Assembly: GCA_050575255.1 (NCBI GenBank)
Contig: JBNZDD010013724.1
Location: 7,857,146 to 7,921,145 of the forward strand
DNA length: 64,000 nucleotides
Source: Harriotta raleighana
Lineage: Eukaryota
Reading direction: 5' to 3'
Position numbers: made by a program. Below are positions 6,001 to 12,000 of the stretch, piece by piece (the first letter of the stretch is position 1; every line of letters starts with the position of its first letter).

Positions 6001-9000
6001 CAACCGATGCTTTCTATCTCGACTGTGTAGCTGGTCTGAATCTTTTGAGTTCCTGAGCTCGGCTCAATGGGGCAGAGGGCATCTGCCAAGGAATTACAAA
6101 GTGAGCACACCAGATGTTGCATGCACAACACATGACAAGAGTAAGGAAGCATAGGGCTTACATTTCAGTGATCGTCTCCGGGAGATTGATGGGTATCTCG
6201 GTGAGACCTTTGCCACGACAATCCACAATACTGTTGCTGCACGTGCAGACGGCAGGACAAGACTTCGAATGGACGCTGCACGATTGTGTGAGGGAGCTCT
6301 GGTGGCCTGCAGCAGGGGAAACACATTACAGGCTTTACATTTGATCATTCGAGATTCTCAGGGATCTGGCTCCCTTGCTCACGCTGGATATTGTAAAACT
6401 CACACAACTCTTTTCTAAGCAATCTACCTTTCATGTGAATTGCATCAATAAACAACCATAAATATACACCGAATGCTAATCGCAGTGAACAGACAAGTTC
6501 CATAACAGTGAGATAAAATCTGGGTTCTGTTTTGCTCACCACTTCCTTTCATTTTCTTTTCCACTGGAATATGATTCACAGGTACAGGGGGCCCCATTAG
6601 ACTTTGTCCTTATTGAACATGAATACACTGATAACTCATGTCCACTGTTGACCCAGGGGTATTTAAAGGGCTTCCCTTGTTAAAAATACAGCCCGTCTGA
6701 GTTATTAGGTTGCCACTTCTTGCATATTTACATTATGCGCAAAAAGCACTTTGCAAAGGAGGTGATATCTAATGCATAGTGCACGGGCTGGATGTGATGT
6801 CAGCGATGGGTTCATGAACCGACGGTTATTTGTCAGCACTCCATTTCACCACTAATGGACCTATACCATTATGTTATAACGGGCTGCCCCAAAATTTATC
6901 TGCGTTGCTATTCAATCAAAATCAAAATCTATTGTTCATACATGAACCGTTGAAAGTTATTTGAACGTGGGGGGGGAGAGAATCACAACAGCTAATGTTG
7001 TCCCATCCCCAAACCTATTTCCAGAAGGGGTCCCTGAATAAATTCTGAATGATTTTCCCTGCGATGCTGAAGTCAAATGAAGCACCTTCAATTTGGCCCT
7101 AGCAAAGATCAGCTAACTCAGCACAGTCCAGGAATCAAATCTAAGCCACCGTGGTCCGTATGGTTCCCCTACAATTACCGAACCAGAGGAAGAAGCTTCA
7201 TTTCAGAAGAAAATTATGACTTCTATTCAAATTGAAATTAGGTGGAAGAGGAAGAAGGAGATTGCTTTATCCCCAGCGTTTAATACTAAGTTGTAAAAGC
7301 CTCAAGGGATGTACTTGGAACTTTAAATCTGTCGTTTACACAAATGAGTTCAAGTACTAACACAGCTACATTTCCTGCGTGCAATGTGGGTCATATAGAA
7401 CAAAACATTAGAATCAGCACCTGAGATCATCCAACTAAACAGATGATACTGTATCACACACATAAACCCAGCAGACTGAATTGACAAAGGGGATTGAATG
7501 ACTTTCTCTTGAACACTACTTCATTCAAATTAAAAATTCACTCTGGTTAAATGGATGCAGCATTTTTTTGTGTGTATATTTCATCCACATGACTAGTAAC
7601 CATAACAGCATGTCTTCCCAGTCTGTCAAGGACAAAAGCTTGCTGTCAAGTCCAGAAAATGGTATTCTGAGAGAAATAGAACCTAGCCATAAAAATAGTG
7701 TGTGCATATCCCAGTATGACTGGTGTCTGACAAGTTGTAGTAATGCCCTAACAAGTATTATTGACATGTCTGTTCTCTCCCTGCATGACTGTGTGAGAAG
7801 AGTGGATCTAAATTATGGGGTGATTAACAATATAAAATATGATATATGGGCAAAATATGAAATTTCTCTGTACGTCATCTCAAGAATAACTACTGTACAT
7901 GAACCCACACAAAAGATGGTTTAATGAGTAAAAACACCGCCCGGTAAAGCACTAAAACAATCCGGGTTCTAATCCCATCTAATCTAAATGATCTGATCAC
8001 AGATAAGAAAGTATTTGAGCGTGCTACAAATGACTTTGACATTCTTGAGTTAGGGAGGTAAAAATTAGACAGGCATTCATTCTTCTTCTGATCTAGATTC
8101 TACTAGTGATTGCATGTATGCGAATGTCAGGTGAAAGCAGGATTAGATTTGGCTGCGATATCTTCTGTAATACTAACACTCCCTGTCAAGGTTCGCACAT
8201 GAATATAACAAAAAAATTACACTTGTACAGCATCTTTCACATCCGGAGGATGTCCCAAGGTGCTAAACAGTCATTGTTTTAGTGGAAATTTGGGAAAGAT
8301 ATGATTGGCCACCTATGGAACCACAACCCAAGAGAAGGAAAGAAGAAGCCAAAATACTTTCAGAAGAGGAGGGGAGAAAAATTGATGCAAATAGAAAATA
8401 TATATATATTTTTTAAAAACACAAGCAAATTGGAATCACACAATAACATTTAGCTAAGTTATCTTTAAAACTGCTCGAAGATCAAAGCGCACTTTTAGCT
8501 GTCCACAGAAATGCAAGGGGTCTAGAACAGTCTGTATAAATGCGAGGATAATTTACAACCTTTCAAATATTGGGAAGCACAATGGGCAACTCTGAGTGAA
8601 TCAGAAGAAAGAAGATCAACTCTTTCAAGTCATGTGCTAAACCTAAGAGCTTTGCTCTTGTGCTCTGGGACATCCAACAGCGGGCTGAAATTCTGATCGG
8701 TGCTATGTGTAGCACCTTTGTTGATGCACAAGTGTAATGTGGAAATCCGATCCAAATCCAACATTGTCAAGTACACGTTGGCTCCAACATTCTCCAACAA
8801 ATCCAGCACCAACACACTTTACAGTAGATCTTATAAATTGCTTTGAGATATTTCAATTCTGGTTGATGTTTTATATCATAGCATTCTAATCATACATATA
8901 CATAAATACAAAACTTCCCTGCATTTAATATGATTATAATGCTTCGATATAAAACATCAACCAGAAGTTTAGCCCTTATGATTCTTCAATTAAAATACTT

Positions 9001-12000
9001 GCTCTCAATTCACTGAGGAGTACCTATTATCAACTTCTGGGCAGAAGCCCCATGCCTTCTACATGGTGATGGATGAGGGTGTTAAACAGCGACAAGTAAA
9101 GTAAACGCAATTGTTCAAAGCCAGTTTGTACAAGCGGGGGTGCCAATGTGATCCAGGTATATTCTAAAAAGCTTTACAATCTGTCGAATGTTGCATACTC
9201 CTGCATAGCAAAGAGTGGACCCATGAACACATCTTACGCAACGTACAGAATACAAAACAGAAATAAGACTTGCCTTCATCCTCATCTGGAAAGCGGGAGA
9301 GAGAAAAGAAAACACAATGAGATTAGTGCCATGCAAGTACCTTCCGCAGACTGCAGGCAAAGGCGTGTAGTTAACATTCCAAGCAATCGGTTACGGGTTT
9401 CCTTAGACAGTAAGAAAAGCAGTACAAAAGTAAAGCAATATAAACACAAAGACTTGCCTCATACTTACCAAAACCTGAGGGGAAAAGATGTCTAAGAGCA
9501 ATTTGCTAGTCAACCGCAGTAATGAAAAGCAAGCACACCGGGACTACCAACAAGCAGGTCATGGAGCAACCTTTCACTATCCGATGCCTGAATAAATATA
9601 CACTTTGGCAAGATCGAGACACAATCTCAGCAAAATCACATTCTATGCATGCCGTGAAGGGCCACCTTACGAGAGGAATTGCAAATCTAAAGTGTTATGT
9701 TTTGATTTGTTAGCAAGATTAAAATAAAAAACAAGACATTTTAATTTACGGAGGTGGTTCTATTCTCCGGAGATGTGATAGAATCAGTGGTATGGGTCCA
9801 CTTTGAAGACCAAAAGAAACAGCAAGCTTAGAACCAACACAAAATTATAGTTACAGAGGTAACGCTGTGATGTTCGGTCCAATATCTCTGGGATCACCAA
9901 GAGAAGTAACGGTGAACAAACCACAGCAACTATTAAAGCATCCATCCTACAGTTTTATTGAGATCAAAATAGGAGGAAGTAAGCTTAGACAGTCAAGCAA
10001 GATGTTAATTTAGAAATGTTCTAAGAAAACGGGTATCATACAGCAACATAAGTCAAGAATAAGCATTAATAAAAAAACACATGTAGAACCGAGTGGTCAT
10101 ATTCAAATAAGTGTATATTTGTATATTTATACATTTCAAATCTACACTGAAAAATTCAACTAATGTTAAACACTGATACATTAGTAATACAAACCCCAAT
10201 CCTCAGTGATTCTTTCTATAAACGCTGCTGTGTGCTTCTGCCTCACACCTGTCCCATACAGACTTAAATGAAAATATAATAAAAGTGGCTTTTTACAGAT
10301 TCGAAAAGAAGCAGGTTAGCACGGCACGAGTGCCTCGGGCAACTAATTTCTCTTAGTTTTAACATAGTTCTTTCTCACTCTTACCGGAGCAAATGAACTC
10401 CCTCTTTTGCACCTCAGCAACGTTATGACCTCTCAGGTGTCCCGGTCCAATGCACTGTGTGTACAGCCCGACTCGCGGACGCTGCCGCAGCCAATCAGAG
10501 AGCCAGGCCAAGTGGCAATCGCAGTACAGGTTATTTGAATGGAGCCGGCTGAAGAAGAAAACGACGACGAAGAAGAAGGAATAAAGTCAATACATTGAAA
10601 TGAGCAAAGGAGAGCAAGCAGCACAATTTCAGAGACCCGAGGTTAGTGTAATAAGGAGAACAAATGAGGAATCAATCCCTTAAGCTCATCTGTAAATTTA
10701 AAGCTCCTTGACAGGACCATTTCCAATAGTTGCAAGTTTTTTTTTAGCAACACTCCTCTGACAGCAGCCTTTTAGCTGGAGATTAATTAATTAATAAAAG
10801 TTGGCTCAGCCGTCACAAAATCAATTCAGAGCGTTTCCCCTTGACTATATTACAGGCTCAGCAAACATGTGAGAGCCAAAAAACCAATTATGGAATTCGG
10901 AAGCTTAAGTCTAACAAAAGACAAGAAAAGTAAATTGCATCTCAGTGGTAACATACTGTCAGCAAGAAAAAAATAATGCTAATAGAAGCTTTGGCTCCCA
11001 ATTATAAATACCAATAAGTCTAGTCATTATTAGCCTCTATAGAAACTGCCTCCAAAATCCTTTTAGCAAATGACATTTCTTTTCTTCTAAACAAGATAGA
11101 ATGATAATTCAATATAAAGTACTCCTTTCATATCCTTTTCCGAGTTCCTCCTTTTTTTGTTTAATCACAGAGAAAGGATTAACAGATTTCTTTCCCTCGA
11201 GACTCGTGCTCAGTGCAATCTGTGAAATTAAAAGACGCAAATGGCAGCGAGCAGGGGAATTAAGTCAGTTACTTCTCCAGGCAGGACCTTCATAGGAATA
11301 TGGCTCCCTTCCAACAAGCAAAAAGCACCTCACCATCAATAAAATATCAGATAAATGTATCCCTTAAATTAGGTAAATTACTTTAGACTGGCTTTCCTGT
11401 TTCTCAAAGTAAAATAAAGGACGCCAAGAACCATAAATCAAGTTGCCTGCTCGTAACGCTTCTTTGACTATGTAATGTAATTTCATCAGATCCTTTTAGT
11501 CAATGCATTCAATCCTAACAAAATACACCCTAATGGGTATTGAAGCATTGGCCGCAGTCTAGCATGCTAATTTTCCACTATGGAGAGATGATTGGATAGA
11601 CAGTTACTTTTAATTAAGTATTGTACCTTGCAATATAGGCATCCCAGTCAACTGAGTTCAAACATACATCAATGCAGTGTATTAATACTTAGCATTTTGC
11701 ATCAAAGTAGTATAAAGAGTGAACATCTTAGATGAAAGATATTTTCATTGGGTTTTGTACAAACCATTCTATTTATTCTGACCACTCCAATTTATATCTT
11801 TAGGAGATAATCTCTAGGAAGCAGCTACAACAAGATTTAAACCCAAACAAAGATTGTACAAGCTGATACAGTTTCTAGTTTTGTTAGTTGTTTCTATTGT
11901 GAAGCATATTATTTTACTCTCTGTGATTCAGTTCGTACAAGTAAAAATAGTTGACTTTTTTTTACTTACAAGGTTCTGAGCCTGGGCATATGGTTGAAAC

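What the first reader, a model, noticed from the sequence alone, without database searches (positions are those of the whole stretch)
6307..10384. Possible multi-microexon switchboard tuning the SLIT2 D1-D2 linker
Seen: intron 8 is a phase-1 intron falling exactly in the linker between the D1 C-cap and the D2 N-cap. It contains up to three frame-preserving phase 1-1 mini-exons in series: 6 nt (GF, 9469-9474), 12 nt (DEDE, 9274-9285) and 24 nt (VEKKMKGS, 6540-6563), plus a long hairpin. Known: D2 is the Robo-binding domain and also binds heparan sulfate, and I recall only the DEEE insert from mammals. Inference: combinatorial inclusion could change linker length and charge (acidic versus basic) right next to the receptor-binding domain.
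Basis: partly seen in the sequence, partly recalled or inferred. Interest (0 to 1): 0.78.

Follow-up and report, generated by a model that had tools for sequence, protein, structure and literature searches.

The report
One conserved SLIT2 microexon, not three
This intron of the elephant-shark SLIT2 axon-guidance gene holds one convincing 12-base alternative exon, already annotated in birds and bony fish; a 6-base candidate remains untested and a 24-base one looks like chance.

Summary
The window is not human. The exon 8 and exon 9 peptides are 100% identical to Callorhinchus milii (elephant shark) Slit2 models. The gene lies on the minus strand.

The described sequences are all present. Intron 8 (10384..6307) is phase 1 and separates the D1 C-cap exon from the D2 N-cap exon.

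- **12-nt candidate (9285..9274, DEDE): well supported.** It has the best splice signals of 178 frame-preserving mini-exon candidates in the intron. Nothing as good occurs in the other 123.5 kb of the window or in 1000 simulated introns. Its position, length, phase and peptide pattern match annotated SLIT2 isoforms of finch (DEEE), pike (DGDE) and cichlid (DWDE). It uses a GC donor.
- **6-nt candidate (9474..9469, GF): open.** Its splice signals are unusual at about the 2% level. It sits in what looks like a diverged upstream copy of the 12-nt cassette. No transcript or homologue support was found.
- **24-nt candidate: chance level.** About 12 equally good candidates are expected per intron.
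- **Hairpin: real, role unknown.** It matches no Rfam family.

The "switchboard" reading is therefore only partly supported.

The parts
10385..10548 (-). SLIT2 exon 8 (164 nt): C-terminal cap of LRR domain D1. It ends one base into a Gly codon (phase 1).
   Evidence: The peptide P0001 is 100% identical to C. milii Slit2 models. LRRCT match.
6307..10384 (-). Intron 8 (4078 nt), phase 1, GT..AG.
9469..9474 (-). 6-nt candidate mini-exon GTTTTG (would add G-F). Acceptor tract is 14 of 18 pyrimidines; donor is G|gtaagt. Unverified.
   Evidence: Second-best candidate in the intron. No homologue support.
9425..9492 (-). Upstream, diverged copy of the 12-nt microexon cassette (pyrimidine tract, exon-like stretch, gcaagtc donor, T-rich downstream). 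It contains the 6-nt candidate and a frame-shifting 17-nt variant that ends at a GC donor whose first intron base is 9457.
   Evidence: Local alignment score 29 to 9312..9240. No equal in 0 of 500 shuffles, 0 of 704 and 0 of 1722 other window segments, and best of 2518 segments. GC donor score 7.52.
9330..9335 (-). The only TGCATG in intron 8 on the transcribed strand. It lies between the two candidates, about 45 nt upstream of the 12-nt exon.
   Evidence: Reading it as an RBFOX-type site is recalled, not tested.
9274..9285 (-). 12-nt alternative microexon ATGAGGATGAAG, phase 1-1. It inserts D-E-D-E and restores the Gly. AG acceptor after a tract of 17 of 18 pyrimidines; GC donor AAG|gcaagt.
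   Evidence: for signals. for the peptide pattern shared with finch, pike and cichlid isoforms; it is the only one of 19 12-nt candidates that encodes it.
8857..8966 (.). Inverted repeat / hairpin: 38-nt arms, 92% complementary, 34-nt loop. Single copy in the window.
   Evidence: No Rfam family.
6540..6563 (-). 24-nt candidate (VEKKMKGS). Weak acceptor; chance level.
6162..6306 (-). SLIT2 exon 9 (145 nt): D1-D2 linker residues plus the N-terminal cap of D2.
   Evidence: P0002 is 100% identical to C. milii Slit2 models. LRRNT match; matches 2v9s_A.

Best explanation
Intron 8 of the elephant-shark SLIT2 gene carries one genuine cassette microexon. It is the 12-nt exon at 9285..9274 (minus strand).

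**What inclusion does to the protein.** The Gly codon split by the intron becomes Asp-Glu-Asp-Glu-Gly. This adds four acidic residues two positions after the last cysteine of the D1 C-cap and 16 residues before the first cysteine of the D2 N-cap.

**What it is related to.** It is the orthologue of the D-x-[D/E]-E microexon annotated at the same junction in bird and teleost SLIT2. That dates the exon to before the split of cartilaginous and bony vertebrates.

**How it is probably regulated (inferred).** It uses a GC donor with an otherwise perfect consensus, a type that I recall as common in regulated exons. Skipping is presumably the default, and inclusion presumably depends on the tissue.

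**What it probably does (inferred).** The insert changes the charge, and perhaps the stiffness, of the short tether next to the domain that binds Robo and heparan sulfate.

**The other elements.**
- The 6-nt candidate lies in a diverged upstream copy of this cassette, most simply a local duplication about 185 nt away. It is most likely an unused or rarely used pseudo-exon.
- The 24-nt candidate is a chance match.
- The hairpin is an unrelated inverted repeat.
For: **Shown**
- Gene and species: the exon 8 and exon 9 peptides are 100% identical to C. milii Slit2 models.
- The intron phase and the cap domains are confirmed.
- The 12-nt exon has the best acceptor (9.87, 17 of 18 pyrimidines) and donor context (7.93) of 178 frame-preserving candidates. 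These exceed the five constitutive exons scored (acceptors 2.87-7.18, donors 2.16-5.26). No equal occurs in 123.5 kb of other window sequence or in 1000 simulations.
- Of 19 possible 12-nt AG..GT/GC candidates in the intron, only this one encodes D-x-[D/E]-E.
- The same four-residue acidic insert, at the same junction and followed by the same Gly, occurs in 6 of 185 Slit proteins examined: Geospiza fortis P0016 (DEEE), Astatotilapia P0067 (DWDE) and Esox lucius P0134-P0137 (DGDE).
- The 24-nt candidate is at chance level.
- The 6-nt region is the best match to the 12-nt cassette among 2518 window segments.

**Taken from a paper**
- Slit-Robo signalling runs through the second Slit domain and depends on heparan sulphate (abstract of PMC2693880, as shown in the listing).
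Against: - No transcript data were available, so inclusion of the 12-nt exon in C. milii is inferred and not shown.
- 0 of the 5 C. milii Slit2 protein models seen (P0018, P0019, P0023, P0025, P0030) contain the insert.
- The donor is GC, a minority class, and my score ignores the +2 position.
- The splice weights are recalled approximations.
- The 6-nt candidate is not explained away. Its signals are rarer than chance predicts (16 of 1000 simulations), so calling it unused is a judgement.
- The duplication signal is modest (score 29 against a best background of 24-28).
- No functional study of the acidic insert turned up in five literature searches.
Confidence: 0.72

Rival explanations
1. Two-microexon system. 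Both the 6-nt (G-F) and the 12-nt (D-E-D-E) exons are spliced in. They arose from a tandem duplication of the cassette and give up to four linker variants.
For: - The 6-nt candidate ranks second of 178, with acceptor 6.97 and a G|gtaagt donor.
- Only 3 equals in any frame, and 0 that preserve the frame, occur in 123.5 kb elsewhere. Simulations give an expectation of 0.017 per intron.
- It lies 183 nt upstream of the 12-nt exon, inside a region that aligns to the 12-nt cassette.
Against: - 0 of 185 homologues have a comparable two-residue insert. The only 2-residue insert seen (Astyanax, G-E-W) fits read-through of a GTGAGT donor instead (inference).
- Exons of 6 nt are, from memory, a rare class.
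- In the alignment the 6-nt exon corresponds to the pyrimidine tract of the 12-nt cassette, not to its exon.
- A competing GC donor 11 nt further downstream would give a frame-shifting 17-nt exon.
Confidence: 0.13
2. The 6-, 12- and 24-nt exons are combined to tune linker length and charge (acidic versus basic), possibly with help from the hairpin.
For: All three are frame-preserving and stop-free in phase 1. The 24-nt candidate has an acceptable donor (4.67). The hairpin is very stable.
Against: - The 24-nt acceptor scores -2.61 with 11 of 18 pyrimidines, below every real exon scored.
- Intron 8 holds 12 frame-preserving candidates of equal or better quality. Elsewhere in the window there are 170 and 180, and simulations give a mean of 12.5 per intron.
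- No homologue has a similar insert (0 of 185).
- The hairpin has no known family and no demonstrable link to either splice site.
Confidence: 0.04
3. No alternative exon is used in this species. The 12-nt element is a conserved relic or a coincidence, and the intron is simply removed.
For: 0 of 5 C. milii Slit2 models carry an insert. The donor is GC, not GT.
Against: The splice context is stronger than that of the constitutive exons, and the peptide pattern matches annotated isoforms of three other vertebrates. Four of the five C. milii models are partial, and two of them have irregular linkers, so they are weak negative evidence.
Confidence: 0.08

Closest known systems
The 12-nt acidic alternative exon of vertebrate SLIT2 between the D1 and D2 exons, as annotated in Geospiza fortis (DEEE), Esox lucius isoforms X4/X6/X8/X12 (DGDE) and Astatotilapia calliptera isoform X8 (DWDE)
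   Same: It lies at the same junction, directly after the ...F-x-C-[ST] end of D1. It has the same length and phase, the same D-x-[D/E]-E pattern, and the same regenerated Gly before H-Q-S.
   Different: Here the residues are D-E-D-E and the donor is GC. Donors in the other species could not be read because no vertebrate genome collection was available. An apparent diverged second copy of the cassette lies about 185 nt upstream.
The nSR100/SRRM4-dependent Slit2 microexon described by Quesnel-Vallieres et al. 2015 (PMC4387716; passages read)
   Same: It is the same gene and also a frame-preserving microexon in the N-terminal, Robo-active part of the protein.
   Different: That exon adds nine residues to the fifth EGF domain, not to the D1-D2 linker. 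It is a different exon. Whether the linker exon depends on SRRM4 is unknown.
Robo1/Robo2 microexon 6b (Johnson et al. 2019, PMC6687390; seen in the listing, and described in passages of PMC12308364)
   Same: It is a small frame-preserving alternative exon in the same signalling pathway. Its inclusion changes the strength of repulsion (passage).
   Different: It lies in the receptor, not the ligand, and is NOVA-regulated. It offers an analogy for possible function only.
SLIT2 exon 15 variant (Slit2-WT versus Slit2-deltaE15; PMC6406468 abstract in the listing; PMC6584916 passages)
   Same: It is another short alternative exon of SLIT2 that affects the LRR region.
   Different: It lies within D2 according to PMC6584916, not in the D1-D2 linker, and is outside this window.

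Membership tests
SLIT2 gene (vertebrate Slit homolog 2) | Exon peptides identical or near-identical to named Slit2 proteins | tested here: met
   P0001 and P0002 are 100% identical to C. milii Slit2 models P0019, P0023 and P0025. They are 94% and 87% identical to the shark SLIT2 P0033. C. milii Slit3 (P0169) is only 72% identical.
SLIT2 gene (vertebrate Slit homolog 2) | The intron separates the LRR C-cap of D1 from the LRR N-cap of D2 | tested here: met
   LRRCT at residues 31-54 of the exon 8 peptide (19.5 bits, just under the cutoff of 20; partial domain). LRRNT at residues 16-42 of the exon 9 peptide (41.7 bits). Match to the Slit2 D2 chain 2v9s_A.
Vertebrate SLIT2 D1-D2 acidic 12-nt microexon | 12 nt, phase 1-1, inside the intron between the D1 C-cap exon and the D2 N-cap exon | tested here: met
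   9285..9274 in intron 8.
Vertebrate SLIT2 D1-D2 acidic 12-nt microexon | Encodes D-x-[D/E]-E and regenerates the Gly that precedes H-Q-S | tested here: met
   DEDE+G here. DEEE, DWDE and DGDE followed by G-H-Q-S in P0016, P0067 and P0134-P0137. It is the only one of 19 12-nt candidates in the intron with this pattern.
Vertebrate SLIT2 D1-D2 acidic 12-nt microexon | Usable splice sites on both sides | tested here: met
   Acceptor 9.87 (17 of 18 pyrimidines, cag). Donor context 7.93 with AAG|gcaagt. The donor dinucleotide is GC and not GT.
Vertebrate SLIT2 D1-D2 acidic 12-nt microexon | Actually included in mRNA of this species | not testable with these tools
   No transcript data were available. 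0 of 5 C. milii protein models contain it.
Vertebrate SLIT2 D1-D2 acidic 12-nt microexon | Orthologous DNA conserved in other vertebrate genomes | not testable with these tools
   No vertebrate genome collection was on hand. Genome contigs holds only bacteria and archaea.
Neural SRRM3/4-dependent microexons | UGC-containing enhancer close upstream of the 3' splice site (feature recalled from memory) | tested here: inconclusive
   By eye, there is no TGC in the 44 nt upstream of the 12-nt exon's AG. The nearest is inside TGCATG at 9335..9330. For the 6-nt candidate, a TGC lies about 26 nt upstream. Tissue specificity is unknown.
Known structured RNA / pre-miRNA (for the hairpin) | Match to an Rfam covariance model | tested here: not met
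   No match at gathering score in the window apart from a tRNA-like hit at 41577-41648. In 6100-10600 at E<=1 there is only a sub-threshold SOX2OT_exon2 hit at 9627-9703 (18.3 bits against a cutoff of 45).

The most novel reading that the evidence does not exclude
In chimaeras the SLIT2 linker microexon cassette was tandemly duplicated, and the upstream copy evolved into a functional 6-nt microexon. Together with the ancestral acidic 12-nt exon it would give four linker variants (none, +GF, +DEDE, +GFDEDE) next to the Robo- and heparan-sulfate-binding domain. This would be a small, lineage-specific two-switch system in a guidance cue.
Probability: 0.1. Interest if true: 0.5.

Novelty: new member of a known kind. 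Interest (0 to 1): 0.27.

Why it matters
If the 12-nt exon is used in the elephant shark, the acidic D1-D2 linker variant of SLIT2 dates to the common ancestor of jawed vertebrates. Such long retention of four residues argues that the variant has a function. I found no functional study of it in five literature searches. The site lies next to the domain through which Slit signals to Robo with heparan sulphate (abstract of PMC2693880, seen), so a binding comparison with and without the insert is a simple, open experiment. The remaining results are housekeeping for the scan: one candidate is downgraded to chance and one is left open.

Tried and rejected
- **Short-fragment search.** A search with the exon 9 peptide among proteins of similar length gave only two unnamed 77-residue hits at 77% identity (P0188, P0189). 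Their origin could be any tetrapod, including human, so I did not fetch or use them.
- **Joined models.** I made no search with a joined exon8-microexon-exon9 model; the exons were searched separately.
- **DNA conservation.** This could not be tested.
- **Basic inserts in other species.** I considered that the G-K... and G-R... inserts in 17 listed models, plus 3 carp models, reflect a second, basic microexon. I rejected this. G-K is what reading straight through a G|GTAAG donor gives, as it would in this window. Several of these models then run out of frame with the normal linker. They look like gene-model artefacts (inference).
- **Transposon origin of the hairpin.** No second copy occurs in the window at up to 3 mismatches. 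Small interspersed repeats lie just beside it at 8790-8851.
- **Hidden coding content.** Four long stop-free frames in the intron have no Pfam match.
- **Literature.** Searches for the acidic insert found nothing specific. The one Slit2 microexon in print that I found lies in EGF5. Little et al. 2002 on Slit gene splicing is cited by others but is not held in the library and was not read. Supplementary tables of microexon atlases are closed and may list this exon.

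
Full report
**What the window is.** The finding lies in a gene on the minus strand.
- The stretch 10547..10386 translates to a 54-residue peptide (P0001), and 6304..6164 to a 47-residue peptide (P0002).
- Both are 100% identical to Slit2 models of Callorhinchus milii, the elephant shark (P0019, P0023, P0025).
- Identity to a shark SLIT2 (P0033) is 94% and 87%. Identity to bird and mammal SLIT2 is 94% for exon 8 and 72-79% for exon 9.
- I therefore take the window for C. 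milii or a very close relative, not for human.
- A local tblastn of P0023 and P0033 against the window places five exons at about 25981, 14556, 12041, 10548 and 6306.
- By residue numbering in the full-length shark protein these are exons 5 to 9, so 'intron 8' is a reasonable name. This numbering is an inference; exons 1-4 and exon 10 were not found in the window.

**The observation.**
- Exon 8 (10548..10385) ends ...TCCG|gtaaga, one base into a codon. Exon 9 (6306..6162) follows ...ctgcag|.
- Exon 8 ends in an LRR C-terminal cap and exon 9 contains an LRR N-terminal cap. Exon 9 also aligns to the solved Slit2 D2 chain 2v9s_A/2v9t from its third residue.
- The insertion point lies two residues after the last cysteine of D1 and 16 residues before the first cysteine of the D2 N-cap. 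This tether is not part of the solved D2 chain.
- The hairpin is real: 38-nt arms, 92% complementary, 34-nt loop, with z = -10.2 as RNA.

**Is it more than chance?** I listed every AG..GT or AG..GC pair 3-30 nt apart on the transcribed strand of intron 8.
- There are 647 pairs, of which 178 preserve phase 1 without a stop.
- Each was scored with a simple weight matrix for acceptor and donor. The weights are approximate vertebrate frequencies recalled from memory. They serve only for ranking, and the same scoring was applied to every null.
- The five constitutive exons score 2.87-7.18 (acceptor) and 2.16-5.26 (donor).

| Candidate | Acceptor | Donor | Rank among 178 | Equals in the other 123.5 kb (both strands) | In 1000 simulated introns |
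|---|---|---|---|---|---|
| 12-nt | 9.87 | 7.93 | 1st | 0 | 0 |
| 6-nt | 6.97 | 4.47 | 2nd | 3 in any frame, 0 frame-preserving | mean 0.017; 16 of 1000 hold at least one |
| 24-nt | -2.61 (11 of 18 pyrimidines) | 4.67 | about 12th | 170 and 180 frame-preserving | mean 12.5 |

In intron 8 itself, 12 frame-preserving candidates are at least as good as the 24-nt one. The 24-nt exon is therefore noise, the 12-nt exon is far beyond chance, and the 6-nt exon is unusual at about the 2% level. That last figure is post hoc.

**Comparative evidence.** I searched the two flanking exons separately against the protein collection. I then extracted the stretch between the end of D1 and the start of D2 from all 185 long proteins returned. 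One row lacked the first anchor and 5 lacked the second.
- Six rows carry a four-residue acidic insert exactly at the junction, followed by the usual G-H-Q-S: Geospiza fortis (DEEE), Astatotilapia calliptera isoform X8 (DWDE) and four Esox lucius isoforms (DGDE).
- The window's D-E-D-E fits this D-x-[D/E]-E pattern. It is the only one of the 19 12-nt candidates in the intron that does.
- No row has anything like G-F or V-E-K-K-M-K-G-S.
- None of the five C. milii Slit2 models has any of the three inserts. Four of them are partial models, and two have irregular linkers.
Isoform-level matches in cartilaginous fishes stay unchecked. The tool that lists cluster members was switched off.

**Other inserts in homologues.**
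- Seventeen listed models, and three carp models, begin the linker with G-K... or G-R... and then diverge. G-K is what one gets by reading through a G|GTAAG donor, as in this window. I take these for gene-model artefacts and not for a second, basic microexon (inference).
- Two Astyanax models have G-E-W where three others have G. This is what a tandem donor six bases into a GTGAGT intron would give (inference).
- One RefSeq model (Anarhichas minor X1, P0143) has a six-residue insert of unrelated sequence.

**The 6-nt candidate in context.**
- Read on the minus strand, the sequence after its gtaagt donor continues ATGAGgcaagtctt. This nearly repeats the end of the 12-nt exon and its donor (ATGAAGgcaagtctt).
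- A local alignment of 9492..9425 with 9312..9240 scores 29. It runs colinearly from the pyrimidine tract through the exon to about 40 nt downstream.
- That score was reached by 0 of 500 shuffles (maximum 28), by 0 of 704 other 176-nt window segments (maximum 26) and by 0 of 1722 73-nt segments (maximum 24). It is the best of 2518 overlapping segments compared with the 12-nt cassette (next best 25).
- The margin is modest. The simplest reading is still a diverged local duplication of the cassette about 185 nt upstream.
- In that alignment the 6-nt exon corresponds to the pyrimidine tract of the 12-nt cassette, not to its exon. The conserved GC donor of the copy (first intron base 9457, score 7.52) would give a 17-nt, frame-shifting exon. 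Exon 9 stays open in the shifted frame.
- I therefore rate the 6-nt exon as a candidate that is probably not used, or is rare, but I cannot exclude it.

**The hairpin.** It occurs once in the window. It matches no Rfam family at the curated thresholds or at E<=1. It lies about 310 nt downstream of the 12-nt exon, directly beside short interspersed repeats that recur elsewhere in the window (8790-8851). Nothing connects it to splice-site choice. Its origin is open.

**How it most likely works.**
- Shown: a 12-nt, phase-preserving cassette with very strong splice context, matching an annotated alternative exon of other vertebrates.
- Inferred: skipping gives the ...C-S-G-H-Q-S... linker, and inclusion gives ...C-S-D-E-D-E-G-H-Q-S.... 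Four negative charges are added to a short tether beside D2.
- An acidic patch there could weaken local heparan sulfate contacts or alter the D1-D2 orientation. This is speculation until it is tested.
- The single TGCATG of the intron lies 45 nt upstream of the exon. From memory this is an RBFOX-type site, which in that position would favour skipping. This is untested.

**Literature.**
- The one Slit2 microexon I found in print is a different one: nine residues in EGF5, nSR100-dependent (passages of PMC4387716).
- Another paper concerns Slit2 exon 31 (passages of PMC12358039).
- The exon 15 variant lies within D2 (PMC6584916 passages; PMC6406468 abstract in the listing and passages).
- Searches for the acidic insert itself returned nothing specific.
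- Little et al. 2002 on Slit alternative splicing is cited but was not available to read.
- Supplementary tables of microexon atlases, which may list this exon, are closed.

**Verdict.** This is one conserved, already annotated kind of microexon, here in a chimaera and with a GC donor. Alongside it are an untested 6-nt candidate inside a probable duplicate cassette, a chance 24-nt match and an unexplained inverted repeat. The finding is mostly ordinary. The open points are cheap to settle with RNA-seq junction mapping and a cross-species alignment.

Noticed in passing
window 10373-10384 (minus strand): The exon 8 donor is followed 6 nt later by a second GT (gtaaga|gtgaga). Using it would also preserve the frame and add two residues. 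Its score is low (1.07, against 5.26 for the main donor).
   Followed up: partly
proteins P0180 and P0182 against P0181, P0184-P0187 (Astyanax mexicanus): Two cavefish Slit models have G-E-W where the others have G at the same junction. This is what a tandem donor 6 nt into a GTGAGT intron would give. It could not be checked without the genome.
   Followed up: no
proteins P0006, P0007, P0014, P0027, P0035, P0124, P0179 (G-K...) and P0043, P0048, P0050, P0055, P0061, P0065, P0070, P0084, P0087, P0089 (G-R...): Many automatic SLIT2 models of birds, mammals and teleosts read on past the exon 8 donor and then diverge from the normal linker. These are probably gene-model artefacts, not a basic microexon.
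   Followed up: partly
protein P0143 (Anarhichas minor SLIT2 isoform X1): A RefSeq model has a six-residue insert (G-S-I-C-W-C) at the same junction. It is unrelated in sequence to any candidate here.
   Followed up: no
window 41577-41648 (minus strand): A tRNA-like match just above the Rfam gathering score (31.2 bits against 29) that ARAGORN does not call. It may be a tRNA-derived repeat. A short repeat shared with intron 8 lies nearby at 41326-41382.
   Followed up: partly
window 8208-8270 and 8790-8851: Short interspersed repeats in intron 8 with 76-83% identical copies at 19878-19940, 29579-29624, 41326-41382 and 55998-56073. None overlaps a candidate exon.
   Followed up: partly
window 15360-19396 and 25056-25299: Tandem duplications (periods 99, 224 and 122), a 37-39-nt repeat and TG runs, interspersed with N positions. 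Strong positive GC skew at 16-22 kb and 44-48 kb. All lie in the large introns upstream of exon 6.
   Followed up: no
window 9627-9703 (minus strand): A sub-threshold Rfam hit to SOX2OT_exon2 (18.3 bits against a cutoff of 45, E = 0.68). Most likely chance.
   Followed up: no
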